A stretch of DNA of 64,000 nucleotides from Botryllus schlosseri (Eukaryota). Made by a program: the position numbers and the translations under genes. The number at the start of each line of letters is the position of its first letter. The first letter of the stretch is position 1. This document shows positions 19,561 to 38,994 of this stretch, piece after piece. Under the pieces are notes generated by a model. The model saw only the letters and a list, made by a program, of their open reading frames with translations. It was not told the origin of the DNA and ran no database searches. Where the stretch lies: NCBI GenBank assembly GCA_051294905.1, contig CM119371.1, positions 12,836,001 through 12,900,000 on the forward strand, read 5' to 3'.

Positions 19561-21828
19561 CAGACATGGGGTGATTACTTCATGAATGTAATCGATTGCG
19601 ATTACGACTACTTCCGATTTACGCGGTTACTATTACGATTACGATTACAGCAAAAACAGGAAGTAGTCGACTACGATTACATTGGAAAAGTAATCACGAT
19701 TACTCACGATTACATCAACTTTGCATTGCAGAAGTTATATTGGAAAACAATACGTGGATTGCGCTGAAAAGGCGCATTCCTTTAAAAAAGATGCGTCATT
19801 TGCTTGACTGCCGCACCCCAAATTTCCCAATATGGTGGTGAGCGAGCTCGAAGGGGTTTCAAGAGTATTTCGTAAACCAACATAAATTATAGAGTGTTCT
19901 CGAGAGATTTAATTAACTTGAAAATTCTTTTTAGATAAGCTTGATTTTGTAATGCATACGTCTCCCCCTCAACAAAAATGCATACATAATTTATAGTGGG
20001 CTTGTATTTAGAACAAATGGTTGTTGGAAACACATTGTTTAAAACATGATTTAAGCAGTGTTATAAATAAAGGCTTTAAAAAAACTAAATTGTGTTTTTT
20101 TAAGTTGTAAAATCATGCCATAATTGCGTAAATGCTTTCCACAATTATCACCCGATTTAGCCGACGTACATCGATATGGGATGATTGGATCCCCTAAAAA
20201 TAGTCCGTTCAACAGTTATAATACCGATATTTCGTCAAAGAAGTTATATTTACCCTATATTTTCAATTGTCAATATCAATCCACATTCCTGACGTAATGG
20301 CTTAAAACAACAACAACAACAACAATAAAAAACATGCTTAAACATGGGCCTTCTTGCAAACAAGCTCGTTTTAAATTTATTTTTGTTTTAAATGCAACCC
20401 TAATTTATAGCAATAGGCATTTAAGTTCCAGTCAATACCGTGCCATGACACACCAAAATACATGTGCAATTTCGATAAACACGCAACTTCACGAAATGTG
20501 CTACTAAAGAAAGACCTTGGCTGAAACTTATGGTATGTGTCTATTTTCAATAGCCGCGCTGGGTGAGCGTGACTAATTCCGGTCCTTCCAATCCGAGCCC
20601 ACATTGCAAATGCCACCCGGACACCCACAGACCATTAAAGACATGACAATGTGTGTGTGCGTCTCACGAAAGTTTTTCTTTTAGTCTGCTACCTCAGGAA
20701 TACAACTATATCTTTTGATTATATAACAGACCGGAAGTCACGAATTAACAACCTACACTAAAGTAATTATAACAAGATAACAGACGTTATAATTATGAAT
20801 TACGTACCACCTCCTCTACAGGTAAATCTGACCATCGGAGGCAGAGAGAGATGAATAAATAATAATAGTAATGCGATTACCAATATTATTGACGAAATTC
20901 AATCTCCAACTCACATTTATCACCCTATGGGGTCAAAGACCAACGTTTGGACTAGGGGACGAATAGTTGTTTTGGTCCTGATTCTAGCTACAACCCACGC
21001 CAACATGATATATATGGCCATTGCTATGGCGGCAGGTCCCAATGTTGAGTAAAGAATTATGACATAACGATTGGCGCATGTTTCAAGGAGTGTCATATGA
21101 GCAGAACATAAAATTCTGCCTTCAACTTAATACAGATAATGTACTGCAAGCTGCCGCTACGAGAAACGGCAGACACGGCCCGGATATGATAGACATCATC
21201 AGCTGTTGACTTTTATTGCTTCGTTGTGGAAACCGTAATGTTTTATTTGACGATTACAAAATTTCAAATCTCTGTCCGGTGTACTTAGGCTACGTACTAC
21301 ATGGGCCTACTGCTCGCCGAGAAGCAACGGTCAAACTGCGTTCGCATAACCAAACATCAATACACAAGTTACTAGGTAGTGTGGTGATTAATTATCTTGC
21401 TGCGAAGTACTGGCGCGTGGTACGTGTTGATAACCTGATATACAGCACGGCGGGTGTTCTTACAATCACACGTATGTACGTGACGTGACGTACATCGAAT
21501 ATCTATTTACTGTGAATACTTCTTACGCAATGACTAGCAAAGCTAATAGGCTACTTCTGACGTAATATGAGCAATGACATTTAAAAATCAGACGTTTGAA
21601 CCTGGTATAATACATCTTCCTTGTTCACGAATGCTCAGTTTATGTCATAGTCCTTGTACAAATAAAAACTAATCGTTCTTTCACAAAGAAATCGATTAGA
21701 TATGGGATGTAGTCGATTACGATTACGAATATTTCGTAATTTTATCGAATGAAATCGATTGCGATTACGATTACTTGAAAATGCTGTCATCGTCGTAATT
21801 GATTACGATTACTAATAGCGATTACCCC
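19561..21828. mobile_element. hAT-like non-autonomous element with GATTAC subterminal repeats
   Basis: Left TIR CAGACATGGGG after GTCATAAT; right end ...ATTACCCC lacks its terminal 7 bp and is followed by TCATAAT. Confidence 0.8.
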
Positions 21829-22134
21829 TCATAATTACAATGATAAAAACTGCGCAGACTTTGGAAGTATGATTTCAGTTTTTTGTATCCGTTTGTTGTT
21901 TTGTAATCCCGTGCAAATCCTATCAAAAAGGAGTCAGGGTGCGAAGTCGCAAATATTAAAACTGCAGTAAATGTACTGGCATATTCAAAAGCCTTGGGCA
22001 TCAAGCTTTATCCCAATTGAATTATTCTTTAAAAACCGAATTTACACCACTTGCCATTCACTCCTCCCATGCAGATAGCGGCGAGAGCGCTTCTCGATAT
22101 CCTCTTTGGGTTGATTCTCCCGCTAGTATGCGAT

Positions 22135-22471
22135 AGTAGTAAGAGAAATGTGCGGAATCCCCCCATTCGCGATTTATAAAGAACAAACAAACATTATCAA
22201 GATAATAAACAGTGTAAGAATTAGCTCATTATCAATTTAGCAGCAATACTTTTATGACCTTGTGTGCTGCAATCAAAAAAAAAGGGGGGATTGACTGAGA
22301 TAAAACGAACAAAGAATCTCGATTGACCTTTGTACTCAGACTGGAGTCATTCTACTTGTACTTTTCCACTCCTGATTCTACCTCGCCTGACTTCTGGACA
22401 CGAGACTTGTGTATTATGTATTATATTTCCCCCCGAACAGCAATGGATTGGCATTTAATTTCAATGGTATG
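22135..22471 (+). repeat. Polinton left terminal inverted repeat
   Basis: Reverse complement of 38175-38512, with about 5 substitutions and one poly-A length difference by eye. Confidence 0.95.
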
Positions 22472-23586
22472 CACTTACTAGTAATTTTTTATATTTCCCC
22501 CGAACAACAACAGTATAGTATTGTTATATTTCCCCCTACGAACAACAACAGTATAGTATTTGTTCCCTCGGGTCCGTATGTGAGATCCCGGCGCGTGTTT
22601 TAGGTGGATTGTCAACGCGCGTCCGGGCAGATGTATCGCCAAAGCGGATTATCGGTTACTTACGTTTGTCTGTGCAGAGTGACGCCTACGGTCTGTGTCA
22701 TACTGGAAACGTACTCTACTTGTTATTGATCGAGATTGTAGCAGGGGAGATGATCTGTTAGGGTTATAAATATACGGGTCAACTCGAGTTCTCGAGAACA
22801 CCCATGTAAATAAAGCCCTCGCTATTGTTACGGGTCACAGAGCACGGATCACGTGTCGACAATCGATCGAAGCCCGTCAACTGGTATTTTGAAAGCTCGC
22901 GGTATGGTGTATTATTGTGTATGGATTGTTGCGGTATTAGAATTGTGGTTACGGCTCGTTGGCGATGCGAGGATCAGGTTTATAGTATACTATAACTACT
23001 TAGCTCGGGTATGATACGACGCGCTGCTATTGCCCAAGACCTAATTCACGATAATCAATCGCGCTTTCGAAAATAGACATGCGGCCGCGTAGACTGTATA
23101 GCGCCTTTTGTTTTGTGATCCTCCCTGCTGTGCCGAGGAGCGATAATCTCGCTTTCGAAAACAGCCATGTCGCCTCGTAGACATGCACAGCGCCTTTGTC
23201 CTGTAATCCACCCCGCTGGGTCGAGGAGCTATTCTCTTTGTTCGAGAATGTTGGATATTGGTCTCGGCCGTCGCTTGGCCACTATACTGAATGCGAAAGT
23301 TGGTTATTGATTAACTATCACGCCGATTTCCCCCCCGGTTAATGCTACTGTCTCGCTCTGCTTTAATTATCACGGCGTATAGTACTCTCACAAACACGCG
23401 GTTTTACAATCTGATAACCTCTTTCCACGCCGCTTGAGTGAGATTGCTAAGTCGAGACGATAGCTGGTAGTATGGTATTGAAAGATGATGTATTCTGGCA
23501 GGCTAGAAAGTTTACCAACCCTAATCTCTGATAAATAGTGTCAGCAAAATAATCACATGTTTCTTTTATTTCATACATGAAACAGT

Positions 23587-24294
23587 TCATTCTTTGCAAA
23601 TACGCGAATAGTCTTGTAAGAACAGCTCACGTTTGCCTGATCGGACTTGGACACGTAGATGGGTGACATCATAGTATTTGTCAGCAGTGAATAACGGTAC
23701 AACACCCCAATTTTTCAGATCGACAGAAATGTCACCATTCACTAGTGCATATGAATGTAGCTGTCTCTCCGAGTTTGTGCCAATGGATTCAGAATCCGTG
23801 GCAATACAGAGACCTCTGTAATTAACAATCTTGTCATCGTACAAGCCTTTTTGGATATCTTCTGCGGACACGTACCGGAATTCAACCATCTCTGGGCTAG
23901 GTAAGCGTGCTTTGCTCTTTGTAACAGTAGAATTGCGACCAATGATTAATGACGGGGCATCAGTTCTTGCGTCAGCAGTGATCTTGATGTTACAGAAAGT
24001 CATAGTATGACCTTGTCTGTACGCTGTTTCGATGCAGTCCAGTAATTTGTCATTGAATATCACCCCTGGTAGAGATTTTTTACCATCTGTGATCGAGGCT
24101 TTCACATAAGTCATCTTGGGTCCATGTCGTCTGGTCGACGCCAATTGTACACGTCCATCGAAGCTGACTTGCATGCCATAGAAACTGGTGGCATTGTCGA
24201 AATTTGGAATATGAGACGGGGCAGCCCGTTTCAAGTCGGTATTCAACTTGCGCTTGGTTGCAGTATTTTCGTACGGGTTGTATTTACATGCCAT
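23587..24294 (-). CDS. Putative tandem OB-fold ssDNA-binding (RPA/SSB-like) protein, 235 aa
   Basis: Intact ORF inside the TIRs. Two beta-rich repeats with RPA-type spacing: KASITDGKKSLPGVIF...MTFCNIKI...LIIGRNSTV and IVNYRGLC...YALVNGDISVDLKNW...YYDVTHLRV...LFLQDYSRI. Fold assigned by pattern only. Confidence 0.6.
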   Translation of the reverse strand: MACKYNPYENTATKRKLNTDLKRAAPSHIPNFDNATSFYGMQVSFDGRVQLASTRRHGPKMTYVKASITDGKKSLPGVIFNDKLLDCIETAYRQGHTMTFCNIKITADARTDAPSLIIGRNSTVTKSKARLPSPEMVEFRYVSAEDIQKGLYDDKIVNYRGLCIATDSESIGTNSERQLHSYALVNGDISVDLKNWGVVPLFTADKYYDVTHLRVQVRSGKRELFLQDYSRICKE

Positions 24295-24314
24295 GGTGTA
24301 ATTATGCCTGTAAG

Positions 24315-24664
24315 TATGTCACTAGAGAAAAAGAGTCTTGTATTTATATTCAAATGGTTGGGGGAAAAAGGCCGAGTAGAGTGTCATAAAATTTCTTGCC
24401 GAGTTTTGCCGGCTCTGTTTAACTGTTTTAAGTACCTTCTTCCAATTGTCATGTAGCTCACAGTGTCTATAAGTAAGTGTAAATCGGGTATGCGAGTATG
24501 GCACTAGAGAAAAAAGAGGTTTGTATGTATATTCAAATGGTTGGGGAAAAGGCGAGTAGAGGGTCATAAAATTCCTTCCCGCGTTTTGCTGACTCTGTTA
24601 AACTGTGTTAAGTACCTTCTTCTGCTTGTCATGTGGCTACAGTGGCTATAAGTAAGCGTAAATT
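24315..24664. promoter_or_regulatory. Two diverged ~175-bp tandem repeats between divergent genes; candidate bidirectional promoter
   Basis: Units at ~24315-24484 and ~24494-24664 share CACTAGAGAAAAA...TATATTCAAATGGTTGGGG...GTCATAAAATT...AAGTACCTTCTT...CTATAAGTAAG; TATA-like motifs on both strands. Confidence 0.55.
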
Positions 24665-24696
24665 GAGCTTACCATCACAAATCTTGGCTCATAGCT

Positions 24697-25170
24697 ATGG
24701 CTGATAACGGGATACCAGAATTGATGGAAGGTGGCTACCCGGTAGACCTACTCGATGCGATTAGTCCAGCAAATGATATTCCAGAAAATGTAGAAAATCC
24801 AGCCCAACCTCCTGCATTCCCATCCAGGCGTAGACCTGGGGGTGAGAGGTTTGGGAAATACAGTAGACGAATGATGGAGCACCTCAAGGCGACCGTTGTT
24901 GAGGCCATCGCAATCAGTCCATCTGAAGCGATCTTTACTATCCTGGGGGAAGTGGATGATATACTTTCGAGATCTAGTTTTCCATCCCATGAAACATTCA
25001 CTCAAGATTATAACCGGATAGAACAAGAAATTTCGCAAATACTATCCCAGTCGAACGGACAGGATTTGCGTATGCAATTACCCTTGGAACGCATCATGCG
25101 TGCAAAAGTTACCTTTCTCAAAGAGATGTCAGCTGCCAGAGCCACCATGAAATTTTATACGAATGTGTAA
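24697..25170 (+). CDS. Polinton hypothetical protein (157 aa), possibly the first exon of pPolB
   Basis: Intact ORF; a candidate GT..AG intron at 25167-25281 would join it in frame to pPolB. Confidence 0.6.
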   Translation: MADNGIPELMEGGYPVDLLDAISPANDIPENVENPAQPPAFPSRRRPGGERFGKYSRRMMEHLKATVVEAIAISPSEAIFTILGEVDDILSRSSFPSHETFTQDYNRIEQEISQILSQSNGQDLRMQLPLERIMRAKVTFLKEMSAARATMKFYTNV

Positions 25171-25282
25171 CTGTTTTTGGTGTACTATCATGTTTTTATC
25201 ACATGCTTAAGTTGTAATATCATATGTATTTATGTGTGTTTTGTCCTACCTGTTATTGATTCTGTGTTTTTTTGTTTGCAGA

Positions 25283-28200
25283 ATGTCTAGGCGGCGAAAC
25301 CTTGTTAGAATTGTGTCTGATTTTACACAACCAAGCAGCTTGGGTATACCTGAAAATCTGATCGAGATCGTGGAAGAAAACTGGCACTCCATTCGCAGCT
25401 CAACACTCGCACCGCACAGTATACGCAGCTTACACAATTTTCGTATACTCGGCCGCAGCCCAAGTGACGTCATCAACGATCTAAAGGACATCTTCGTCTC
25501 ACAACAGTATGGTTTTAGAATCAATTACGCTTTTGCCCACATACTTGGTAATGTTGAGACAAGCGAATTGAGATACTATCATTCGTCCGAGAACGCCGGT
25601 GTTATGTTGGATACACCTAAAATGATTTCTAATCGCAGTGACTTTGACCAATTTGTAGACAATATAGACTTGGCCGCGGGCTTCGAGAGTGCTCGCTTTC
25701 AGAGAGACGATACTAAATTTGATGTCTTGGCGGTCACAAACGTGACCTTTTATGTATACAAATCTGACTTCAGATTAATTGGGTGTAGTAGAATCGAAAT
25801 CCCAAAGTCTATTGTGAATTCACATAGTGTTTTGGATTTAATGAAAAATCGACATGGTGTACCCTATGACGATCATTATTGTATATTTCGCTGTGTCGCT
25901 GTTATGCTTTGTGATGGTAATCATTATAGTGGTGACTTGCAGTCTAAAACACTCTCTCTGGTGGCACAATATTCCGCTTTATATGGGGACCCTGATTCTG
26001 GGGTATGTATGAACGATTTACATAAAGTCGAGTCATGTCTTAAAGTATCCATCTGTGTCTATACATTGAAAGATGGGGTCGGGTATATACTACGACACGG
26101 TGCTCGGGAGGGGTTGAAAATTCATGTTCATTTAGAGGGAGGGAGACATTTTTGTTATATTAAAAACTCGAACTTATATTGCAAGAATTATAGCTGTGAG
26201 ACCTGTCATCGCCTGTTCAGTTCAAAATACTTTCTCCAACGGCATAATTGCTTTAAAGATATTCCTAACCACTACCGTGGGGGTATGTTCAAGCCTGAGC
26301 CTACTATATTTGAAGCGTTGGACGAGTTGGGGATAATTGTGCCCAAACCATCTCGTTTCTACCCGTATAACTTGGTTTTTGACTATGAGAGTATATTGCA
26401 AAAAGGCTCAACTCCAAACGACACTGCTAATGTGCACTATGTAGATCATCATATCCCGGCCGCGGTGGCCTTCGCATGTAATTACCCAGGGTACGAGACC
26501 CCAGAAGTACTGATTAGTGATGGCGACCCTGGGGCGCTGGTTGCTAGAATGATGTCACGGTTTGAATTGATCCAAAGTGAGTGTTTTGAGGCATTATGTC
26601 AACAATTTCATGATGTGTTGGAACGATTAGATTGTATTGCTGAAGAAATGCATACCGCTGAGCCGGATGTCAAGCGTATGAGCCCAGCAACCTTATTGAA
26701 ACATCGTTTTTTGAATTATTTGAGTCAATTACCTGTATTCTTTTTCAATGGGTCTCGTTATGATATACCTTTGATTATCCCATATCTGGTGGAGTACTTA
26801 TCAGACCCTATCAGTATTGTTAAGAGGGGGACGTCGTATATGTCTTTGTCGACTAATCGATTTCGATTTTTGGATGTGACCTTGTATCTTGGCGCCGGCA
26901 CAAGTTATGACGCATACATACGTTGTCATAACTGTGCTTCAACGAAGGCCTTTTTTCCATATAACTATTTCACTGATTTATCGGTATTGGATGAAAAATG
27001 TCTCCCAGACCACATACATTTTTATAACAAACTGAAACGGTCTAATATAACTGATGAACAATATCTTTGGTGTCAATCAAAGTGGGCAGAACATAAAATG
27101 ACTACTTTTCGTGACTATCTGTCTTTCTATGTCAGTTTAGATGTTGGCCCGTTACTGGAGGCCCTCACAAAGCATAAGCAACTCTTTGCTCGTTACTCAA
27201 TTGACATGGCTAAACATGGTATATCATTGCCCTCTCTGGCATCACGGTTTGTGTTTAATAGCATACCACCTGTATTCACCTTGTTGAATCAAAAGTATAG
27301 TCATATACACACCTTGATACGGGAAAATCTACGTGGCGGGCTTTCTGTTGTTTCATTGCGATATGCAGAGGCTAAGGTCACAAAAATCAAACCCCAAATC
27401 TATGGTGATAACGCTCTACCTGTAGAACAGGTGCTAGGTCTGGACGCCAACTGTCTCTACCTCGATTGTCTTCGTTCTCGATTACCGGGGGGTTATCCTT
27501 GTCTGTGGTCACCTAATGAAGATTTTACTCTATTCTCCAGGACAAAAACGGCACCTCTCTATGGAAAAATGGCTCACCAATGGCTAAGCTACATTGCGCA
27601 CTGTCGGGGGGTCAAAATCCAACATCAATTCAATGGTCCTGAGCATCGTATCGGCCTGCTCCAGATTTGCATTGATGGGTATTATAGGACCCCACAAGGG
27701 CCTGTTGCACTTGAGCTGTTTGGATGTTTTCACCATGGCCACGGCTGCGAGTTGGGAACCAGCCCGGATCGTCAAGCCCGCTGGGCCGCGACGCAGCGTA
27801 AAATCCAGTATATTCAAAAAGTGGGGTATAAATTGGAGTACATCACAGAATGTCAATGGGTCATTATGCGTCAACGAAGTGATATAGCTGCCTTTATTCA
27901 AACTCTCGAATTCAGTAAAATGGTGAAATGTCGGGTCCTTTCAAGGTCGAAACTCTTAGAGTTGGTGTCAAAAGATCAATTTTTGGGGCCGTTGAGGTCG
28001 ACATTCATGTGCCAAGTCATCTCAAAGAGCATTTTAGTGAGTTCTGTCCCCTGTTCAAACATGCTTATGTAAGTCGTGATGATATAGGCCCGTACATGAA
28101 AGCATTTGCTGAACAACATGGTTTTTTGAAACGGCCACGGAAATTCTTGATTGCTACTCTGCAGGCCACAAAAACATTGTTAATAACACCACTATTGAAG

Positions 28201-29160
28201 TGGTACCTCGAGAACGGGTTAATCGTTACTAAGGTATATCAAGCTATCGAGTTTGAACCCATTGAATGTTTCAATTCTCTTGTAGATACGATAACCGAGG
28301 CTAGAAGACGGGCTGACGATGACCCGTCTCAGAAGCCACTGGGGCAGTTCTATAAAGACATTGCAAATTCCTGTATAGGTAAAACTATCTCGAATTGTAC
28401 AAAATATTCTGATGTCAAGATTGTTAACCGCCAAAAAGCTATGGTCTTGGTAAATGACTCCAGATTTAAATCGATGATAGAGTTGTCACCAGATATTTTT
28501 GAGGTGTCCATGAAATTGAGAAGACATGTTTGGAGCCAACCTAACCACATTGGGTACTTTTTCTATGATTATGCGAAATTGGCCTTATTACGGTTCCATT
28601 CGTACCTGTCCACCTACCTCCTGCCCCGGTCCATTGAAGTAGCATACAGCGACACTGATTCTTGGTACGGAGCTATCTCCTCTGACAGCCTGCTAAAAGT
28701 TGTACGACCCGAAAAACAAGCAGAATTTTTTGAAAATTTTCACAAATATTTTCCAGCAATCGTCTGTGACGAGCACCGTAGCGAATTTTTGGCCAATCCT
28801 CTTTCGTTCAATGATAAACGTGCCTGTTGCAAAGCTCGTAATCGATATGATCAACGGACCAGTGGTCTTTTCAAAATTGAGGCACAATCGAATATTTTCG
28901 TTGGTCTGTCTGCAAAGACTTATTATTGCAATGAGGATAAGTACTCATGCAAAGGGCTCTCAAAAGTAAACAAACTGACTGCTGACATCTACCGGAAAGT
29001 GTTGTTTGAGAAAAAACCACATGGTGATGTGAATTCTGGTTTTGTGCGGAAGAATGCTTCCATTTATACCTATGAGCAATTTCGATCGGCCCTGTCTCAC
29101 TTCTACTGTAAACGAATAGTCGAATCAGACGGTATTCATACGAGACCCTTGGAACTATGA
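25283..29160 (+). CDS. polB: Protein-primed family B DNA polymerase (pPolB) with vOTU-like, zinc-finger and VSR-like domains; one frameshift near 27980
   Basis: ExoI LVFDYES, ExoII FFNGSRYD, ExoIII YVSLDV; motif A GLDANCLY, motif B KDIANSCIG, motif C YSDTDS. N-terminal DDHYCIF...HFCYI (OTU-like); CETC...H Zn finger; IDGY...ELFGCFHHGH...ITECQW nuclease-like insert. Adding one T to the T5 run at 27980-27984 joins ORFs 25232-28072 and 27928-29160 (about 1292 aa). Confidence 0.95.
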
Positions 29161-29295
29161 TTTTTTCGAATGTGCACTTTCCGTATTCTGTGCTTTTTTA
29201 AACCTGTTTTCGCATTATGCTCTCATGTTGACTCGAAATATTCTATGCATCTTGACCCTTTCCCAATAGTGCTCGTTTTCTCGTGTTGTTTACAG

Positions 29296-30980
29296 ACGAT
29301 AGCATTAACACCACAGGGTCAATAGCTTACAGCAGGTGGGGAAAAGCGTATTGTGTTTCACGATTGTATAATACAATGAGTTTTTTCTTTTCAGATTTTA
29401 TCAGCATATAGAAGGAATCGTATAGAAAGAATCGTGGTGAGTTGAAACTATTATGATTTACCATAAATTGGAATCATAATTGTCTCAATTCTCAGATGGA
29501 TCAATACATCGATCATGTAGAATTCTTTCCGCTTCGGGAGTACATGTCTGGGTACGATCATTTACCTCTATGCGAGCAGAAAGACAAGTTCGAGATTGGC
29601 GTTCTGTTTGGTCTGATCATACGACACGAATGTGGGGCAGACCGGGTGGAACTTTTGGCTGAGGTCTTGAGGATAGAGGCTTTGAACATGGACGTCAGAA
29701 GACTCAGAAACATCTTGGAGGAGATTGGGGGTGTGTAAATATGCTCTTAGCTCTCTGTCGTTGCTAAGGCACGTTTATTCATAGACACAAGAATATGCTG
29801 GCGTCCTCCTCGCCCGTCTCAGCTACAAGACCTGTCGAGTCGCATGGAATTCCTAAAAACAGGTGGGTTGTATATTGTGACACAAGTATGGAGTCTTACT
29901 ATTATTTTATTTTATAGTGTTTCGGCGGCACGTCAAAGACATGTTAAAACGAAGACACTATTTTGCTGGCATACATTGCTTATCTTTTGGTGCTCACTGT
30001 GAAATTTTGTTCCATATTGAACGCTTTTTCTATCATCAACGCCTGTCGCTTGCGACTAGTTTTCGAAGGCGGCGTTTGAGTTTGTATTATGTGTGTTATT
30101 TTTGTTTTTTTCCCAGATGACTCATAACTCAGCTAGCGATTTCATTAGTCATGTTTGCGGCCAGCTTTCACTCAATAGACTTCACCGCGACACCCAAGCC
30201 AACTGGCATCGTGTCTCTGTGCTGAAAGATATTCTGCTGGAAGACAATCTGACCGATCAGCAAACTACTCACTTCAAGAAAGAGTTGCAGGATCGTCTAC
30301 ACATTGCCACCATCTTGAGACCAGGTAACAAGCAGTAATAGTCATTACCCGACACATATGTAGCTATCTTTTGTCTTCTAGAATGGATGAGCTTTCGAGA
30401 CGACCTGTTGAGGTGTGTGACGGAGCTGCAGTTTCTACCTGTGTTCACGTATGAAGGCGATGGTGTGACGAGCCGACTGCTGACTGATGCCCGTATCCTG
30501 AATCGTCGTCAAGTTGGCTTCACAGACCCCACCGATCGTGCCGCCTGTAGCGTACAGAACCGCGATCAGTGCTTGACTCACAGAGGAAACGACAACAACC
30601 GATACCGCTTCATGAACCAGGGTTATCTCCGAACGGGAGAAGATCGTCGCGCCCCTAAATCCGTTGACACATCACCTACCGTGGTTGACGCCCCGTTTGT
30701 CGTGGCGACACCGCAGCGTGCCAGAGACATACATCAGTCGCCAGTGCTACCAAGACCGAATCTGACTGCCCCGTTTGTCGTGGCGACACCACAGCGTGCC
30801 AGAGACATACATCAGTCGCCAGTGCTACCAAGACCGAATCTGACTAAAATCGTAACAAAAAAGTCACACGGCCGGGTATCACCTTACCCTCGTAGACCTC
30901 GAGTCTTAGCCAGGACACCGCTGAGTCCTGATGATGCCTCGTCTTCTCGTATCGATTATGATACCTCGCTTCTGCTGTAA
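29296..30980 (+). CDS. Putative multi-exon orphan gene region of the Polinton
   Basis: GT-AG introns of 55-59 nt at 29336-29394, 29437-29495, 29863-29917 and 30325-30381. The last joins ORF 30117-30324 in frame to ORF 30387-30980. Confidence 0.5.
30690..30845 (+). repeat. In-frame 78-bp tandem duplication (26 aa x2)
   Basis: APFVVATPQRARDIHQSPVLPRPNLT twice; one synonymous difference seen (CCG/CCA). Confidence 0.95.
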
Positions 30981-31098
30981 AAGGCGGTCTCGTGGACATT
31001 GTAAGATTCGCTGCGTGGACGGTTTGCGTGACGCTCAGAATCGGCATATTTTTTCGTGTACCTGTCCTTGTTATATATAGAAGTGTGTTTGTGAATAC

Positions 31099-31740
31099 AT
31101 GTCTCGTCACGTCAAAACAGCCTTGGTGATGGATTTCTCGACAGGGAGGGCATGTCTTTTGGCAGGACCGTCGTTTTCGGGGAAGAGCACTTTTATATTT
31201 AAAGTCATAAAAAATATCGATCAGCTTTCAAAGGGTCGTATTAAAAGAATTATCTATTGCTATACGGCTTATCAAGACTCCTTCAACGAGCTGCAAGGTG
31301 TTGAGTTTTACTCGGATCTCTCCATTTTGGATGAGTTGGCGACAAGCCGCCCCTGTCCTACTCTATTAATTATTGACGATAAAATGGAATTTTCGGACAG
31401 GGTGACCCCCTTCTTTACAGTGTACGCGAACCACAAATCGGTGACCACAATATTCGCGGTCCAAAATTTATATTTCCAGTCCAAAAGATCGAGGGACCTC
31501 AGTCTCAGCACCCAGTATTTGATTATCATGCGTAATCCTAGAGATCGATCTCAGATTCGAGTGCTTGGCAAGCAAATGTATCCGGGTAACTCCAAGTTTC
31601 TAGTTGACGCGTATGCCGATGCGACAAAGAACGCTCACGGGTACCTTTTTATAGATTTGACGCAAGCCACACCCGATTCTAGTCGTGTTAAAACAGGGGT
31701 GTTTCCTGGGGATGAACTCGTGTTGTACACGCCACTATAA
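31099..31740 (+). CDS. A32-like (FtsK/HerA) genome packaging ATPase
   Basis: Walker A GPSFSGKST, Walker B LLIIDD, IFAVQN, RNPRD and HGYLFIDL motifs typical of Polinton ATPases. Confidence 0.93.
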   Translation: MSRHVKTALVMDFSTGRACLLAGPSFSGKSTFIFKVIKNIDQLSKGRIKRIIYCYTAYQDSFNELQGVEFYSDLSILDELATSRPCPTLLIIDDKMEFSDRVTPFFTVYANHKSVTTIFAVQNLYFQSKRSRDLSLSTQYLIIMRNPRDRSQIRVLGKQMYPGNSKFLVDAYADATKNAHGYLFIDLTQATPDSSRVKTGVFPGDELVLYTPL

Positions 31741-31777
31741 ATAGTGAAAGTGCCGGCGCTTTGACACTATATTCATA

Positions 31778-32152
31778 ATGGCTCGGACCAAATCGCTGCC
31801 GAAACGTCACTGTTATATTAAGAAGCACGGCGAGACTTTGAAATTTCTGTCCAAGGCGTCGCCCGCGGTAAGGAAGGATATATTATTGGGGAGCTCTTCT
31901 GGTTTGGTGAAAGCATTTTGCGAAGTCTGTGTGAATGTTTTGAACGGCAATCTGAGACTGTCAAAACGCCATATACAAAATTTACACCCGCACAAAGACA
32001 AAATTCGAAAGCTGACAAGTAAAAAGTTGAGCCTGAAGACCAAGAGACGTGTATTACACGCCAACACCCAGCGAGGAGGCTTTATTAGTGGGATCTTGTC
32101 AATCCTGCCATTGGCGGCGTCGTTGTTGAAATCTGTTTTTGGCAAAAAATGA
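31778..32152 (+). CDS. Basic Polinton virion core-type protein with adenain-like cleavage site
   Basis: K/R-rich; CEVCVNVLNGNL; C-terminal QRGG/FISGILSILPLAASLL amphipathic tail. Confidence 0.75.
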   Translation: MARTKSLPKRHCYIKKHGETLKFLSKASPAVRKDILLGSSSGLVKAFCEVCVNVLNGNLRLSKRHIQNLHPHKDKIRKLTSKKLSLKTKRRVLHANTQRGGFISGILSILPLAASLLKSVFGKK

Positions 32153-32601
32153 ATTTCAAAAAAGTGATCATATCGCCTAACCCTCTAGCTCCCTCTAACG
32201 CGACTGATTTGAACTCCGAGTTGGACCGATCGATCAGCGCGATTTTGACTATGGACGTTTCGGCCGACAAGAAATTGTCCTTGTATAACTCTGCCATCTC
32301 AAAGTATAAAAGTCAACGGGGTCAGATCGACAAGCCTCTTCAGATGAAGATGACCAACACCTCCAACGGGTTCACGAACGATCAGATAGCCACTCTCCGC
32401 GAATTACTGCACGAAGTGAAGCCGGGTCGGGTCACCTCGAAAGTAACACCGAAAGCCCCGTCGTCTCCAAGCACCCCCACCACAAGCAAGATAGCTAAAA
32501 CATCACCGCCACTGCAAGAGATCATCAAACGTAGCCGGCGAGCTAACAGGAAGCCGCCCCAGCTCTACGGGTCGTGGACGGCCTACGACGATGACGAGTA
32601 A
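32149..32601 (+). CDS. Polinton hypothetical protein (150 aa)
   Basis: Intact ORF coupled by an ATGA overlap to the upstream gene and overlapping the integrase start. Confidence 0.7.
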   Translation: MNFKKVIISPNPLAPSNATDLNSELDRSISAILTMDVSADKKLSLYNSAISKYKSQRGQIDKPLQMKMTNTSNGFTNDQIATLRELLHEVKPGRVTSKVTPKAPSSPSTPTTSKIAKTSPPLQEIIKRSRRANRKPPQLYGSWTAYDDDE

Positions 32602-33592
32602 GGATAAATATTTTGATATCAAAGCGCCGGCGAGCTATCGCGGTAAATACTTACACCCCGACAAGAAGGATTTGAAACAAGAGGATAGCTACACCCTATT
32701 CTATCCGTATACAGGCAAATTTCAACGCCAGAAGACGATCGTCGGCGGGCCATTCATTCAGATCCAGAGTGACCTCATGGACTTGTCTAATATTTCTAGT
32801 AGCAATGACGGCTACCGTTATGTGTTGGTGTCAATTTGTTGTTTTTCGAAATATATGTTTTTACACGCGACGAAACGAAAGCGTCCGATAGATATGGTCG
32901 AGGGCTTCAACCAGGTATTCGCTCATAAGAGGCCACACGTCGTTCAGACTGATGCCGGGAAAGAATTTACCGGGTCGGTTATACAGAGGTTTTTTAGAGA
33001 CAACCACGTCAAGCACTTTTTTACCAACAGCGACACTAAGGCTAGCATCGTAGAACGGGTAATCCGTACGACCCGCAATGTATTGAATCGCTACTTTGTC
33101 AAGAACCGCACACATCGCTACATCGACGTGTTGGGTGATATCGCAGAGAGCTATAACCAAACGTATCACACCGCGATTTTAATGCGACCGTCGGAGGTTA
33201 CCAATAGCAACGCGTCTCTGGTGTTCGATAGACTATACAACGGAACCGGACCTCCGGTGTCACCCAAGCTACCCGTCGATCAACCAGTGAGAATTACCAC
33301 CCGACGTGCCACGTTTGCGAAAGGTACAGCGGGGTCTTGGACTCGCGAGATATTTTACGTACACACATGGAAATGGGGGAGCCCCGCTACGTACACCATC
33401 CGAGATTATAACGGGGACGTGATTAGTGGAACATTCTACGAAAGTGAATTGCAAGCCATCGATAAAAAAGACGATGTCTATCGCGTAGAATCGATACAAA
33501 AAGTGAGCGGTAGGGGGCGCAAGCGGAGATATCTAGTGCGCTGGGAGGGTTACCCAAAATCGATGGACTCTTACGTCGACGGCTTTGTATAA
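32591..33592 (+). CDS. int: Retroviral-like (rve) integrase with C-terminal chromodomain
   Basis: DDE triad QSDLMD / QTDAGKEF / VERVIRT; YNQTYHTAI; chromo-like YRVESI...YLVRWEGYPKSMDSYV. Confidence 0.95.
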   Translation: MTSKDKYFDIKAPASYRGKYLHPDKKDLKQEDSYTLFYPYTGKFQRQKTIVGGPFIQIQSDLMDLSNISSSNDGYRYVLVSICCFSKYMFLHATKRKRPIDMVEGFNQVFAHKRPHVVQTDAGKEFTGSVIQRFFRDNHVKHFFTNSDTKASIVERVIRTTRNVLNRYFVKNRTHRYIDVLGDIAESYNQTYHTAILMRPSEVTNSNASLVFDRLYNGTGPPVSPKLPVDQPVRITTRRATFAKGTAGSWTREIFYVHTWKWGSPATYTIRDYNGDVISGTFYESELQAIDKKDDVYRVESIQKVSGRGRKRRYLVRWEGYPKSMDSYVDGFV

Positions 33593-33622
33593 AACAGAGA
33601 CGGGGACTCGACCGTGGTAATC

Positions 33623-33784
33623 ATGGATTTATCGCAGCGGGTACGTTACGGATACCTTTGGTGGTTCTACAGCTCGCGATACTGTTTTTTATCGTGGGGG
33701 TAACTGTTTATAACTTATTCACCGAGACCCAGACGGATCTATCTTCGTTAACTAGGGTACTGTCTCTCCAAACCGCCGACGAGG
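33623..33784 (+). pseudogene. Possible small transmembrane protein gene, frame-disrupted
   Basis: Pieces in different frames: MDLSQRVRYGYL / VVLQLAILFFIVGVTVYNL / LGYCLSKP. Resembles from memory a small hydrophobic Polinton ORF; not verified. Confidence 0.35.
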
Positions 33785-34588
33785 ATGTCTCTTCTGGTTT
33801 TACCGAGTAATTCTTCAATGAGCGTTTTTAAGGCAAACACCGCGAACGATTTTGTAACCCAACTATTCTCCGAGTTAAAATATGATACAGAAAGATATGA
33901 GGCAGGGCTTGCGGAAGTCATGTTCCCAGTGAGCTTCCAGCCCACGTTCACGGTAGACCACAAGCGTGCGGGTATCGAATTTTCTGACAGGGGTCATCGC
34001 TACGTGTATTACATCCCGGCCGGCGAGTATCGTAGTGTCCCAGATATGTTGGAACAGTTCCGCTTGCGATACGAGAAAGAAATTACAATCAAGCGATATT
34101 CCGGTGGCGTGTTCGGCTTGAACTTTGAGTATCTCAAGAGTCGATTTCCACAGGCCGACGAGCCCTTGATACGGGTCGAAAAAATCAGTGGTGCGGGTCC
34201 GCGTCTCATTAGCATCGAAGACACGTTTCCGCGTTATTTTACAGTGGAACATCATGTTTTGAAAAAACAGAAACCAATAGAGTTCCTAATCAGGCCGAAA
34301 ACCGTCGTGAAAGATGTAGACACCATCTATATATACACCGATCTGATCAGACCTCGTGTATTCGGGGGCGAGCTGGTACCTCTCCTTCGAAGCGTTCCGG
34401 TGACCGCGCAAGAAGGAAAAATACAGCACTGTGTATATGATAAACCTTACTTTTTCCCCCTGGCCAAGAGTAATATTCGAAATATACGAGTATATCTTCG
34501 TGACAAGAACAATAACCCTGTCGCGTTTAAAACAGCTCCCGTTACTGTGACTTTACTGATCCGTCGAGGAGCCGTCAAAGCGTTATGA
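33785..34588 (+). CDS. Minor capsid (penton, single jelly-roll) protein 1
   Basis: N-terminal LPSNSS...NTANDF...YEAGLAEV; C-terminal IYIYTDLI...GGELVPLLRSV...YFFPL...IRVYLRD...VTLLIR. Confidence 0.88.
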   Translation: MSLLVLPSNSSMSVFKANTANDFVTQLFSELKYDTERYEAGLAEVMFPVSFQPTFTVDHKRAGIEFSDRGHRYVYYIPAGEYRSVPDMLEQFRLRYEKEITIKRYSGGVFGLNFEYLKSRFPQADEPLIRVEKISGAGPRLISIEDTFPRYFTVEHHVLKKQKPIEFLIRPKTVVKDVDTIYIYTDLIRPRVFGGELVPLLRSVPVTAQEGKIQHCVYDKPYFFPLAKSNIRNIRVYLRDKNNNPVAFKTAPVTVTLLIRRGAVKAL

Positions 34589-35364
34589 GCTATATCACGA
34601 TATTCGGAAGCGGACCCGATTTCACGGTTGAATTACCGGTTGAAATCGAATCGGAGGGTAAACAGATCGCTCTCCGAGAAATTAGCTTCAACCATGATTT
34701 TCAGGAAAGAATTGTGATCACAGAACCCACCCCGGCCCTGCGGTTCTACAATACGATTGTCAGACACGTCACGGAAGTCTACGAGTTACCCACCGGAGAT
34801 TTTGATAATGTCGATCAATTAATGCAAAGAATTAGCGAAGAACTCGTGAACGGCTATCACTGGTACTTTACGCACAGCCAGAATCGATTGGTATGCGAGA
34901 GATATGCAATAAATTCGTGTCTGGGTAGGTCTATGCTAGGACCTTACGCGACTCTTAGCGACCGACAGGTCATTCACGAGCATCAAAGACACGATATCGA
35001 CGAGATCATCGCGGATGAGGGGGAGGTTCCGATGCCTTTACGCTCGATTGAGCACGTAGAGTTCCATACAAAGATCGCTCCATCGATAGTAAAATCTCAG
35101 TATATATTTATATATTGCGATTGCGTGCGTCATCTCCCGGTAGGTGATTATATGTCCAGACTGCTACGAATCATCCCCGTTACGGTGCCGGAAATGAAAC
35201 GACAGCACGTATCATTCAGGAAACCGTTTTACCTACCCGCCGATGCCAACAGCTTTCGTAGCGTACGCATCAGCATAAGAGATTCTCTTGGAAAAGAACT
35301 TAAATGTGGTGACATTGAATTGACCCTTCACTTACGAGATGACGTTCCAAACACTGACCGGTGA
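34585..35364 (+). CDS. Minor capsid protein paralogue 2
   Basis: FTVELP...IALREI and IFIYCDCV...VGDYMSRLLRII...FYLP...IRDSLG...LTLHLR; same frame of motifs as mCP1 with a different central insert. Confidence 0.85.
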   Translation: MSYITIFGSGPDFTVELPVEIESEGKQIALREISFNHDFQERIVITEPTPALRFYNTIVRHVTEVYELPTGDFDNVDQLMQRISEELVNGYHWYFTHSQNRLVCERYAINSCLGRSMLGPYATLSDRQVIHEHQRHDIDEIIADEGEVPMPLRSIEHVEFHTKIAPSIVKSQYIFIYCDCVRHLPVGDYMSRLLRIIPVTVPEMKRQHVSFRKPFYLPADANSFRSVRISIRDSLGKELKCGDIELTLHLRDDVPNTDR

Positions 35365-35704
35365 CGGGCCCGTATTTACCCTACCCCACGGAATGGATTG
35401 TAAAGGTCTTGAGATTGCTCTTATGGAGATAAACTTTGTTCGTGAGTCGTGCGAAAGCCTCTACGCCTTTATCTACTGTAATGACATCGAGTCGACGCCG
35501 GTGGGTGACGCTTTGGTCCCGTTGCTAAGAGTCGTTGCGCTACACGAGGGAGAGCGACAAAACCATATATTTCAAAATCGATACTACGCCAAAGTCAGAC
35601 TCGATCGTTTCGAGTATTTCTACATCTATATAAGGGACGAGTATGGTGAATTGTTAGACATCTCGGGTTTAGACCTCACGATACATCTCAGGGTGTCGTT
35701 ATGA
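35339..35704 (+). CDS. Minor capsid protein paralogue 3 (minimal, 121 aa)
   Basis: EIALMEI joined almost directly to AFIYCNDI...VGDALVPLLRVV...YYAKV...IRDEYG...LTIHLR; central insert absent. Confidence 0.8.
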   Translation: MTFQTLTGDGPVFTLPHGMDCKGLEIALMEINFVRESCESLYAFIYCNDIESTPVGDALVPLLRVVALHEGERQNHIFQNRYYAKVRLDRFEYFYIYIRDEYGELLDISGLDLTIHLRVSL

Positions 35705-36089
35705 AAGTACACTATTGCTGTGACCGAGAAGCCGTATTGCACCACTATCAGACCGGGGCTGGGAATTACGGGTTTTACCGGGGGTCCAGGCAAAGCGGTA
35801 GCGGACTCGCGTCGATTTTTCGAACCATAGGCCGGGCGGTCTTACCTCTAGTGTCAAAAAGCTCCAAGATACTGGGGAAACAAATCCTCCGTACCGGGTC
35901 AAATATCGCAAAAGATTTGGTGGCCGGGCGCTCGTTCAAGCAATCCGCTATATCACGGAGTAAAGAAGGAGGTCTGCAGCTTCTCGATACCGCGATCGGG
36001 GGTCGTAAACGAAAAGCCACGAAAAAGCCGCGCGGGGAGGTACCACGTCAAACAAGAAACGTAGACGTAGAGATATATTCGATGGCTAA
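35701..36089 (+). CDS. Small basic amphipathic core / membrane-active protein; frameshift at G4 36034-36037
   Basis: QTGAG and QSGSG/LASIFRTIGRAVLPL motifs. Adding one G gives ...GGGTTSNKKRRRRDIFDG* with TAA at 36087-36089, removing the apparent fusion to the MCP. Confidence 0.75.
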
Positions 36090-37798: not shown

Positions 37799-37937
37799 AC
37801 GCTCGTGACTTGTATTTTCAGATTGTGTATGTTCAATAAACCTTGTACAGCATACGTTCTACTCTTTTACGAGCGTTCGGGAGTCGTTGGCGTCATAAAG
37901 ATCGCTACTAACCAGGGAGCAAAAGAGGTCAACTACG

Positions 37938-38225
37938 ATGACGCAGACCAGAATCGTCACCTTGCATCGCTTCGTCTGGCCGAACGCGTTGACAATCCAC
38001 CTAAAACACGAACCGGGATCTCACATACGGATCCGAAGGAACAAATACTATACTGACATCATGTTTGACGGACAAATATTCCCAAATCCCATCGTGTTTA
38101 CACGCAATTGGATTAATCAACCCACCGCGGAACGACACGTCAAGACAGGAGAACTATATCGATTCGTCGGCGTTCATACCATTGAAATTAAATGTCAATC
38201 CATTGTTGTTCGGGGGAAAATATAA
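37938..38225 (+). CDS. Hypothetical terminal ORF (95 aa) running into the right TIR
   Basis: ATG-initiated ORF; no recognised motif. Confidence 0.4.
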   Translation: MTQTRIVTLHRFVWPNALTIHLKHEPGSHIRIRRNKYYTDIMFDGQIFPNPIVFTRNWINQPTAERHVKTGELYRFVGVHTIEIKCQSIVVRGKI

Positions 38226-38512
38226 TACATAATACACAAGTCTCGTGTCCAGAAGTCAGGCGAGGTAGAGTCAGGAGTGGAAAAGTACAAGTAGAATGAC
38301 TCCAGTCTGAGTACAAAGGTCAATCGAGATTCTTTGTTCGTTTTCTCTCAGTCAATCCCCCCTTTTTTTTTTGATTGCAGCACACAAGGTCATAAAAGTA
38401 TTGCTGCTAAATTGATAATGAGCTAATTCTTACACTGTTTATTATCTTGATAATGTTTGTTTGTTCTTTATAAATCGCGAATGGGGGGATTCCGCACATT
38501 TCTCTTACTACT
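38175..38512 (-). repeat. Polinton right terminal inverted repeat
   Basis: Inverted copy of 22135-22471; its inner end overlaps the 3' end of ORF 37938-38225. Confidence 0.95.
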
Positions 38513-38848
38513 TGCGATAGCTAGTATGCTAGTATGCAATAGCGTACCCACGCCAGCACTTGAGACTCAGATCATAAGAAGAGAAAAAACAACTAAAAAC
38601 TTCGATCGCTCTGCCTATAAAGTAGGCGTAGTTTGTTTTTGCTATATGTCGGCAGCTCAGAAACTAGTCAACAATATCGGTTTGGGGTAAACAGCAACAA
38701 TCCTACCTATTCCGAAAAAAGATACTCTACACCTATAATGTAATTTCACACACCAACATTTTACCTTTCTGTTTTTAATTTAGTGTGTGGTATTTTGAAT
38801 TAAATCATTCATACAACTCACAGCAAACAGAAGCATTAAGAACAATAC

Positions 38849-38994
38849 CTTCTGCACACATTGTGTTTCCGTCACAATAGTATTCTTCCCTCAGCTGACA
38901 TAGTCCCCACCTCGCATTCAAAGAGTTCATTCCGAAGCAAGTTCGATACCCCGAATTTGCTACTGGTGAAGATGTGTCTTCGTCGCTTCCATCG
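38849..38994 (-). CDS. Host LDLa-repeat gene exon
   Basis: AG/GT bounded, 146 bp, phase-compatible; DGSDEDTSSPVANSGYRTCFGMNSLNARWGLCQLREEYYCDGNTMCAE. Confidence 0.85.

What the first reader, a model, noticed from the sequence alone, without database searches (positions are those of the whole stretch)
23587..24294. Polinton carries a divergent gene that looks like a two-OB-fold RPA/SSB
Seen: the only substantial minus-strand gene of the element, intact, next to pPolB, with two beta-rich repeats showing RPA-like spacing (D/N-G turn, LKNW, Y..V..LRV...G...L). Known: protein-primed strand-displacement replicons such as adenovirus (DBP), phi29 and PRD1 use a dedicated SSB, but an SSB is not in the canonical Polinton core set. 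Inference: this may be the ssDNA-binding component of a Polinton replication module, possibly captured from RPA or an archaeal-type SSB.
Basis: inference. Interest (0 to 1): 0.85.

Follow-up and report, generated by a model that had tools for sequence, protein, structure and literature searches.

The report
Polinton-encoded tandem OB-fold (RPA-like) protein
A virus-like jumping gene (Polinton) in this eukaryotic genome carries a previously undescribed small protein whose predicted shape is two RPA/SSB-type DNA-binding barrels, most likely the single-stranded-DNA coat for the element's own DNA copying.

Summary

The gene is under purifying selection (dN/dS about 0.19). It keeps the same place, at the element end and divergent from the protein-primed polymerase gene, in four Polinton lineages of this genome that share only 22-56% identity. 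A fifth homologue from another data set probably shares a contig with a Polinton polymerase.

A related copy is the only conserved ORF in at least 27 giant palindromic, Polinton-type non-autonomous elements.

The most likely function is an element-encoded ssDNA-binding protein for strand-displacement replication (about 0.6). Binding is untested. A terminus- or dsDNA-binding role is not excluded. Capture from host RPA is not supported. My literature searches found no such Polinton gene.

The parts
22129..22134 (.). Left target-site duplication TGCGAT
   Evidence: Read. Identical hexamer at 38513-38518.
22135..22619 (.). Left terminal inverted repeat of the Polinton, starting 5'-AGTAGT
   Evidence: three arm pairs, 94-99% complementary.
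23565..23570 (-). AATAAA poly(A) signal, 17 nt after the stop codon
   Evidence: Read. Function inferred.
23587..24294 (-). Gene for the 235-aa tandem OB-fold protein (stop codon included)
   Evidence: ORF; dN/dS 0.19; model pLDDT 86.1, pTM 0.77; OB-fold matches.
23590..23877 (-). OB domain 2 (residues 140-235): five strands, invariant W196 at the end of strand 3 and Y208 in strand 4
23887..24216 (-). OB domain 1 (residues 27-136): strands 1-3, helix 82-94, strands 4-5; invariant Y63 and F80
24217..24294 (-). N-terminal tail (residues 1-26), low confidence in the model, with a basic KRK...KR stretch (possible nuclear import signal)
   Evidence: pLDDT <50 for residues 1-24; sequence. The import role is inference.
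24341..24348 (-). TATAAATA box 47-54 nt upstream of the ATG, in the 400-bp divergent intergenic region
   Evidence: Read. Function inferred.
24697..25170 (+). 157-aa ORF between the OB gene and the polymerase gene; function unknown
   Evidence: Present in 19 of 20 subfamily-A loci. No Pfam match.
25232..29160 (+). [quoted passage not shown] In this copy it reads as two overlapping ORFs (25232-28072 and 27928-29160), from a frameshift or an unrecognised intron
   Evidence: YSDTDS motif in the second ORF. The intact 1286-aa counterpart in L024 has 152 homologues, many carrying PF03175, and PF03175 clusters in the ESM Atlas at 0.96-0.97. The Pfam HMM itself did not hit.
31099..31740 (+). P-loop ATPase, putative packaging ATPase
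   Evidence: only weak AAA/P-loop hits (E 0.003-0.1). Walker A motif GPSFSGKS.
32591..33592 (+). rve-type integrase with a C-terminal chromodomain-like end
   Evidence: PF00665 E 1.4e-7 (32.2 bits, cut-off 32.6); PF00385 E 0.011.
37985..38512 (.). Right terminal inverted repeat
38513..38518 (.). Right target-site duplication TGCGAT
   Evidence: Read.

Best explanation
The gene encodes a small nuclear protein made of two RPA/SSB-type OB folds. It most likely serves as the Polinton's own single-stranded-DNA-binding protein. When the element's protein-primed polymerase copies the linear genome by strand displacement, this protein would coat the displaced strand. Coating would keep the strand from folding back on its inverted repeats and would stimulate elongation and perhaps initiation at the termini. 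Adenovirus DBP, phi29 p5 and the tectivirus SSBs do this for their replicons.

Shown here: the gene is real and under selection, the fold is a tandem OB, and the gene is linked to the polymerase gene and to the element end.

Inferred: binding to ssDNA, the role in replication, and nuclear import.
For: 1. Fold. AlphaFold2 with 37 natural relatives gives pLDDT 86.1 and pTM 0.77. The topology is strand1-2-3, helix, strand4-5, followed by a second five-stranded barrel.

2. Structural matches.
- Foldseek found 96 PDB matches at E<=0.001. The top ones are RPA70 (4gop_C, 4.4e-11; 1jmc; 1fgu), HIN-200, Teb1 and RADX.
- An independent scan of 48,161 chains lists only OB-fold nucleic-acid binders among its 50 rows.
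- In the viral library the top hits are baculovirus LEF-3, a viral SSB.

3. Language-model neighbours are REPA_OB_2, tRNA_anti-codon, CDC24_OB3 and OB_Ssb-like clusters at 0.92-0.95.

4. Conserved aromatics. Y63, F80, W196 and Y208 are invariant in all 37 family members. F80 and W196 end strand 3 of each barrel. From recalled knowledge of RPA70 (F238, W361), aromatic residues at this position stack on bases. One search aligns W196 with the Trp of the ...DDTG...W motif of an archaeal RPA domain.

5. Selection. Median dN/dS is 0.19 for subfamily A and 0.28 for subfamily D.

6. Linkage. The gene has the same end-proximal, divergent position beside the polymerase gene in lineages A, B, C and E. 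In subfamily A, 19 of 20 loci show the same neighbours.

7. A relative outside this genome. The one clear outside relative (P0006) and a Polinton-type polymerase (P0010) are each singletons from the same source. Each sits on one contig of 12,767 bp.

8. Domain number. One lineage has enlarged the protein to 346 aa by internal OB duplication.
Against: No binding data exist.

No curated family is reached:
- Pfam gives nothing for the window protein.
- PF01336 appears only below threshold, in 9 of 37 members, with best E 0.009.
- PDB sequence and profile searches give nothing significant.

The family is rare. Two proteins were found among 5.8 billion and one plausible relative among 1.84 billion representatives. 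It is therefore not a general Polinton component.

Its survival as the sole ORF of non-autonomous palindromic elements is not what a generic, trans-acting SSB predicts.
Confidence: 0.6

Rival explanations
1. It is a terminus- or origin-specific DNA-binding protein. It would recognise the AGTAGT-type ends, or the frayed or single-stranded 3' end at the termini, to recruit the polymerase/terminal-protein complex or to protect the ends. Telomere end-binding proteins (POT1, TEBP, Teb1) and the terminal-recognition factors of linear plasmids work this way.

For: The gene always lies within about 0.5-1.5 kb of an element end and points outward.

All lineages share AGTAGT termini.

In the two non-autonomous palindromic elements read in full, the termini and this gene are the best-kept part (87% identity over the terminal 1.4 kb, 92% at protein level) and the rest of the arms is 72-84% identical. 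This would fit a factor matched to its own ends.
Against: Single-domain matches are best to non-specific SSBs: Sulfolobus SSB and hSSB1, at rmsd about 2 Å.

Nothing here tests sequence specificity.

An SSB that also stimulates initiation, as adenovirus DBP does, would blur the difference between this reading and the main one.
Confidence: 0.2
2. It is a HIN-like dsDNA binder used against the host, for example to shield the element's DNA from cytosolic or nuclear DNA sensing or silencing. The mouse p202 HIN protein acts as such a decoy.
Against: No sequence signal for the HIN family was found.

Whole-protein rmsd is about 6 Å, so the domain packing is not reproduced.

HIN proteins are, to my recalled knowledge, confined to mammals.

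The conserved aromatic residues at the ends of strand 3 fit base stacking on ssDNA better than backbone contacts on duplex DNA (inference).
Confidence: 0.08
3. It is an OB-fold protein that does not act on the element's DNA. It might be a protein-binding adaptor or an RNA-binding factor, carried as lineage-specific cargo.
For: OB folds are versatile. The list of matches includes tRNA-synthetase anticodon-binding domains and an engineered protein-binding OB. The family is restricted to a few lineages.
Against: Synteny with the polymerase gene is conserved across lineages that share only 22-26% identity. The gene is under purifying selection. Every close structural neighbour binds nucleic acid.
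Confidence: 0.07

Closest known systems
RPA70 DNA-binding domains A and B (human, PDB 1jmc/1fgu; Ustilago, 4gop/4gnx)
   Different: No significant sequence similarity: hhalign against the host's own RPA70 gives probability 2%. The protein has only 235 aa. It lacks the N-terminal OB-F domain and the zinc-containing DBD-C, and there is no sign of RPA32/14 partners. The inter-domain orientation differs (rmsd 7.1 Å).
Single-OB SSBs of Crenarchaeota and metazoa (Sulfolobus SSB, 1o7i/2mna; hSSB1, 5d8f/4oww)
   Different: Those proteins have one OB fold plus a flexible acidic tail. This one has two barrels and a basic N-terminal tail.
HIN-200 domains (IFI16, AIM2, p202, p204, p205, MNDA)
   Different: No sequence-family signal. 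The domain packing is not reproduced (rmsd about 6 Å). HIN domains bind duplex DNA and are host immune proteins of mammals (recalled).
SSBs encoded by protein-primed replicons: adenovirus DBP, phi29 p5, PRD1 P12/P19, Bam35 B35SSB, yeast linear-plasmid pGKL2 Orf5
   Same: The proposed role is the same: an element-encoded ssDNA coat for strand-displacement replication by a protein-primed family B polymerase. For B35SSB I saw the abstract in the listing. The others are recalled.
   Different: To my recalled knowledge, none of these is a tandem RPA-like OB protein. No sequence relation was seen in the PDB searches or in PHROGs.
Baculovirus LEF-3
   Same: It is a viral SSB built from OB folds, and it gives the top matches in the viral structure library (E 4e-7 to 1e-5).
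   Different: LEF-3 proteins are larger (about 340-680 aa). TM-scores are low (0.26-0.34) and identity is 6-13%.
RPA-like proteins carried by Helitron transposons (recalled, not checked here)
   Same: A eukaryotic DNA transposon that replicates through ssDNA and carries an RPA-type OB protein.
   Different: Helitron RPA genes are recognisable captures of host RPA70. This family has no detectable sequence similarity to host RPA70 and belongs to a different transposon class.

Membership tests
Nucleic-acid-binding OB-fold superfamily (RPA/SSB type) | Five-stranded closed beta-barrel with a helix between strands 3 and 4 | tested here: met
   E42-52, E62-69, E74-79, H82-94, E97-107, E114-126. The second barrel (E156-234) has no helix. 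All 50 rows of the Foldseek-independent scan are OB-fold proteins.
Nucleic-acid-binding OB-fold superfamily (RPA/SSB type) | Match to a curated sequence model (PF01336, PF16900, PF21473, PF17244) | tested here: not met
   The window protein has 0 Pfam families at E<=0.1. PF01336 appears only below its cut-off, in 9 of 37 members, with best E 0.009. A six-frame PF16900 search of the genome found only two host loci.
Nucleic-acid-binding OB-fold superfamily (RPA/SSB type) | Conserved aromatic residues on the strand 2/3 face that stack on bases | tested here: inconclusive
   Y63, F80, W196 and Y208 are invariant in 37 of 37 members. F80 and W196 end strand 3 of each barrel. Equivalence to the RPA70 stacking residues rests on a non-significant alignment and on recall.
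Nucleic-acid-binding OB-fold superfamily (RPA/SSB type) | Binds single-stranded DNA | not testable with these tools
   Needs a gel-shift or anisotropy assay with purified protein.
RPA70 orthologue or recent capture of host RPA70 | Detectable sequence homology to RPA70, plus DBD-C with a zinc ribbon and the N-terminal OB-F | tested here: not met
   hhalign of the family profile against the host's 607-aa RPA70 ORF gives probability 2% over 25 columns. The protein is 235 aa with only two barrels.
HIN-200 domain family | Sequence match to the HIN model and HIN-type packing of the two OB folds | tested here: inconclusive
Polinton/Maverick element (the carrier) | Terminal inverted repeats with 5'-AG...CT-3' ends and a 6-bp target-site duplication | tested here: met
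   TIRs of about 485-530 bp, AGTAGT ends, TGCGAT on both sides.
Polinton/Maverick element (the carrier) | [quoted passage not shown] | tested here: met
   The Pfam HMM did not hit. However, the intact lineage-C counterpart has 152 homologues at E<=0.001, many carrying PF03175, and its ESM Atlas neighbours are PF03175 clusters at 0.96-0.97. A YSDTDS motif is present in the window copy. The window copy is split into two overlapping ORFs.
Polinton/Maverick element (the carrier) | Retrovirus-like (rve) integrase | tested here: inconclusive
   PF00665 E 1.4e-7 at 32.2 bits, just under the 32.6-bit cut-off.

The most novel reading that the evidence does not exclude
The OB protein is more than a generic SSB. 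It is a lineage-matched end and replication factor, and it is the one gene that a satellite family needs to carry.

At least 27 elements of about 13 kb are giant palindromes with two arms of about 6 kb. They have Polinton-type AGTAGT ends and 6-bp duplications, and they carry two outward-facing copies of this gene as their only conserved ORF. They resemble the inverted-duplication defective genomes of adenoviruses and linear plasmids.

These elements would be a heritable, defective-interfering-like satellite. It would use its own OB protein to capture the helper Polinton's polymerase, integrase and capsid.
Probability: 0.25. Interest if true: 0.8.

Novelty: new variant of a known kind. Interest (0 to 1): 0.6.

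Why it matters
Polintons are thought to replicate like adenoviruses and phi29, by protein priming and strand displacement. The recognised replication module, however, consists only of the polymerase with its terminal-protein domain. None of the Polinton, Maverick or adintovirus papers I searched mentions an SSB.

A conserved, selected tandem-OB protein beside the polymerase gene gives this clade a candidate for the missing ssDNA-handling part. It is also a concrete reagent for reconstituting Polinton replication in vitro.

The palindromic elements that keep only this gene suggest that Polintons have gene-bearing satellites. This would be a layer of parasitism not described for them.

The case also shows that an orphan with no Pfam hit can be resolved from within-genome paralogues alone.

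Tried and rejected
1. Single-sequence AlphaFold2 gave pLDDT 29.8 and was discarded.

2. Sequence searches were largely empty.
- Pfam, PHROGs and PDB by sequence and by three profiles gave nothing significant.
- The best of these, archaeal RPA domains at E 0.08-0.11, is a hint only.

3. phmmer over 1.84 billion representatives gave 6 hits.
- Five are bacterial proteins of 2,000-3,600 aa made of DUF11/DUF7927 or PKD repeats. Each matches query residues about 44-128 in 6-16 stretches.
- I treat these as summed weak matches to repeated beta-sandwich domains and not as homologues. No such fold appears.

4. Word-indexed searches found 0 proteins for the single protein and 2 for the profile. Longer and shorter length classes were not searched for this protein, so fused or split forms outside 110-412 aa remain untested there.

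5. Public contig scans:
- viral contigs with two single proteins: none;
- metagenome contigs with a profile: none;

6. Internal duplication: hhalign of domain 1 against domain 2 gives probability 0.3%. A recent duplication of one barrel is not supported.

7. tblastn with the window Polinton's 15 proteins at E<=1e-3 found nothing in two palindromic elements. It did not find the diverged OB gene either, so it would also miss other genes that diverged. An ORF scan found only one conserved ORF there.

8. RNA. No RNA holder was listed by the index.
- Raw reads from 4 RNA-seq runs give depth of only about 0.3-2.5 over 23662-24215.
- Most of the laid reads fit only in part, and they may come from any copy at 95% likeness. 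This is weak evidence of transcription.

9. Earlier scan notes held nothing on this place, sequence or topic.

10. No complex prediction was run, because the report claims no protein-protein contact.

Full report
**The object**

It runs from an ATG at 24294 to a stop at 23587 on the minus strand and encodes 235 aa. Reading directly:
- the start has an ACCATGG context;
- TATAAATA lies 47-54 nt upstream (24348-24341);
- AATAAA lies 17 nt after the stop (23570-23565).

The gene sits in a 16.4-kb element bounded by inverted repeats 22135-22619 and 37985-38512. The ends read 5'-AGTAGT...ACTACT-3' and are flanked on both sides by TGCGAT. These are the Polinton/Maverick hallmarks of AG...CT termini and a 6-bp duplication.

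Of 18 ORFs of 100 aa or more overlapping 21000-40000, three are on the minus strand. The other two lie over plus-strand ORFs. A 157-aa ORF (24697-25170) separates the gene from the polymerase gene, so 'next to pPolB' is only nearly right.

**Is the carrier really a Polinton with a protein-primed polymerase?**

Pfam did not recognise the large ORFs. PDB sequence search and PHROGs did not either. I therefore tested the intact 1286-aa counterpart from a sister lineage (L024):
- Residues 600-1286 have 152 homologues at E<=0.001. Many carry PF03175, and the named ones come from invertebrate animals.
- The ESM Atlas places it among PF03175 clusters at 0.96-0.97.

The window copy carries YSDTDS but reads as two overlapping ORFs (25232-28072 and 27928-29160). 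The capsid-like gene is likewise split (35701-36921 and 36903-37355). The integrase matches rve at E 1.4e-7, 0.4 bits under the curated cut-off.

**The gene is real and selected**

A six-frame search of the 495-Mb genome scored 150 of 295 candidates:
- 19 full-length open copies at 92-100% identity, plus one truncated copy (subfamily A);
- a 55% group (B);
- a large set at 22-30% identity, with open frames of about 190-250 aa.

Pairwise Nei-Gojobori estimates give a median dN/dS of 0.19 for the 19 A copies, over the 164 of 171 pairs with dS>0 (mean dS 0.10). For 11 copies of the distant subfamily D the median is 0.28 over 55 pairs.

**Fold**

Without relatives the model was useless (pLDDT 29.8). 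With an alignment of 37 unaltered natural sequences, AlphaFold2 gave pLDDT 86.1 and pTM 0.77. The 37 were 35 from this genome, including the window's own copy, plus P0006 and P0007.

The model shows:
- residues 1-24 disordered;
- a barrel with strands 42-52, 62-69 and 74-79, helix 82-94, and strands 97-107 and 114-126;
- a second five-stranded barrel at 156-234.

Structure searches all agree:
- Foldseek found 96 PDB matches at E<=0.001, led by RPA70 (4gop_C, 4.4e-11). HIN-200 domains, human RPA70 DBD-A/B, Teb1 and RADX follow.
- A scan of 48,161 representative chains that does not depend on Foldseek lists only OB-fold nucleic-acid binders in its 50 rows.
- The viral library returns baculovirus LEF-3, a viral SSB.
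- The language-model neighbours are REPA_OB_2, tRNA_anti-codon, CDC24_OB3 and OB_Ssb-like clusters.

The tandem OB fold is thus well supported.

**What the fold does not decide**

HIN-200 domains (dsDNA binders) and POT1/TEBP (telomere-end binders) score within 1-2 Z units of RPA. The whole-protein rmsd of 6-7 Å shows that the packing of the two barrels matches none of them.

At sequence level nothing is significant:
- PF01336 appears below threshold in 9 of 37 members.
- The domain-2 profile's best PDB hits are two archaeal RPA domains at E 0.08-0.11. They align the ...DDTG...W motif and W196.
- The family profile against the host's own intronless 607-aa RPA70 ORF gives hhalign probability 2%.

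Recent capture from host RPA is therefore not supported. An ancient common origin cannot be judged.

Y63, F80, W196 and Y208 are invariant in all 37 members. F80 and W196 close strand 3 of their barrels. From recalled knowledge of RPA70 F238 and W361, this is where RPA-type OBs stack an aromatic ring on a base.

**Linkage**

- Lineage B (C12): OB gene on the minus strand, then a 280-aa ORF, then an intact 1323-aa polymerase ORF, then the ATPase and the rest.
- Lineage C (C8, mirrored): ATPase, a 1286-aa polymerase ORF, a 295-aa ORF, a 110-aa ORF, then the OB gene. The OB gene ends about 540 bp from a terminus that again reads AGTAGT.
- A fourth lineage (C11, two copies): a 346-aa version with an internal OB duplication beside the polymerase gene.
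- Subfamily A: 19 of 20 loci keep the 157-aa ORF and the polymerase N-terminus in place. L018 gave no hit.

These lineages share only 22-56% identity in the OB protein.

Outside this genome the family is nearly invisible. Two proteins were found among 5.8 billion and one credible hit among 1.84 billion representatives. P0006 is that outside relative. P0010 is a Polinton-type polymerase, 41% identical to lineage C. Each is a singleton from the same source, seen on one contig of 12,767 bp. They are probably neighbours, but I could not fetch the contig.

**An unexpected relative**

Most of the distant matches come in minus/plus pairs about 11 kb apart. I count 27 such pairs among the 150 rows, and one search shows more.

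Two were read in full:
- The C14 element has two arms of 6,273 bp at 99.92% identity around a 0.9-kb spacer.
- The C3 element has arms of about 6,045 bp at 99.9%.

The 211-aa OB gene lies about 0.8 kb from each end and points outward. It is the only ORF of 60 aa or more that is conserved between the two elements. No other protein of the window's Polinton was found in them by tblastn at E<=1e-3, a search that also missed the diverged OB gene.

The ends read AGTAGT. Three of the four pairs whose ends I could read have perfect 6-bp duplications: CACGGG, TATGTT and CTTGTT. The C14 copy has none and sits among other fragments.

These elements are therefore Polinton-type non-autonomous elements shaped as giant inverted duplications of one element end. 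They keep this gene under purifying selection. Similar inverted-duplication derivatives are known for adenovirus defective genomes (recalled). They are also known for a linear plasmid; that reference was seen only in the reference list of PMC11161782.

**Mechanism**

Protein-primed strand displacement releases a full-length single strand whose inverted ends can anneal. The replicons that use it, so far as I recall, supply their own SSB: adenovirus DBP, phi29 p5, PRD1 P12 and pGKL2 Orf5. For Bam35 B35SSB I saw the abstract.

The best reading is that this protein is the Polinton's SSB (confidence about 0.6). The supporting points are the tandem RPA/SSB-type OB fold, the invariant aromatic residues, the basic N-terminal tail, the constant position beside the polymerase gene and the variable OB number.

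The retention in satellites and the constant end-proximal position keep a terminus-specific role alive (about 0.2). A HIN-like dsDNA or anti-host role (about 0.08) and a non-DNA role (about 0.07) are less likely.

**Expression**

Four RNA-seq runs, read at about 6-13% of their depth, give depth 0.3-2.5 over the gene. Most laid reads fit only in part, and reads may come from any copy. This is weak. The same runs show a much stronger spliced and polyadenylated transcript at 29.7-31.1 kb.

**Literature**

Full-text searches gave no paper describing an OB-fold or SSB gene in a Polinton. The searches combined Polinton, Maverick or adintovirus with OB-fold, SSB, ssDNA-binding, single-stranded DNA-binding or replication protein A.

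Term look-ups inside four papers found no relevant passage:
- PMC8097293: 0 of 6 terms;
- PMC11161782: terminal-protein passages only;
- PMC8502044;
- PMC12220804: a false match.

I saw only passages and listings, not whole texts or supplements. A search for palindromic non-autonomous Polintons also found nothing specific (listing only).

**Verdict**

Function remains inferred.

It is a new sequence family of a known kind of protein, in a class of elements where none had been reported in the literature searched, and it comes with an unusual satellite family. Interest is 0.6.

Noticed in passing
Own genome, e.g. L021+L026 (C14:16593629-16607095) and L022+L027 (C3:2997427-3010484): These are giant palindromic, Polinton-type non-autonomous elements of about 13 kb, with two arms of about 6 kb at 99.9% identity. 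They have AGTAGT ends, and 3 of 4 examined have 6-bp duplications. Their only conserved ORF is the OB-fold gene, present twice and facing outward. At least 27 pairs appear.
   Followed up: partly
window 29729-31117: This is the most strongly transcribed part of the element in 3 of 4 RNA-seq runs. It has three short GT..AG introns (29729/29784, 29860/29916, 30322/30380) and a poly(A) tail added near 31117. It covers the 197-aa ORF 30387-30980, which holds a 26-aa stretch repeated twice.
   Followed up: no
window 33785-35704: Three consecutive ORFs (267, 259 and 121 aa) share a C-terminal motif (IY.D...P.G....LLR..P). They look like paralogues, possibly small capsid or vertex proteins. None has a Pfam match. 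The same trio occurs in lineage B.
   Followed up: no
window 25232-29160 and 35701-37355: In this copy the polymerase gene and the capsid-like gene each read as two overlapping ORFs, from a frameshift or an unrecognised intron. The polymerase ORF is intact in lineages B and C (1323 and 1286 aa).
   Followed up: partly
L065:3816-4856 and L066:3674-4714 (C11): This is a 346-aa version of the OB protein made by internal duplication (OB1, part of OB2, OB1, OB2). It lies beside a Polinton polymerase gene.
   Followed up: partly
L067:49-1872 (C11:21966748-21968571, minus strand): The host's RPA70-like gene is a single uninterrupted 607-aa open frame, so it appears to be intronless. A second PF16900 locus lies at C6:26279363.
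   Followed up: no
window 24697-25170 and its counterparts in L023/L028, L024, L065: An ORF of variable length (154-295 aa) always lies between the OB gene and the polymerase gene. It has no Pfam match.
   Followed up: no
Alignment A2 (family members): 10 of 37 family members give weak sub-threshold Pfam matches to Adeno_E1B_55K (PF01696, best E 0.053). This is probably chance.
   Followed up: no
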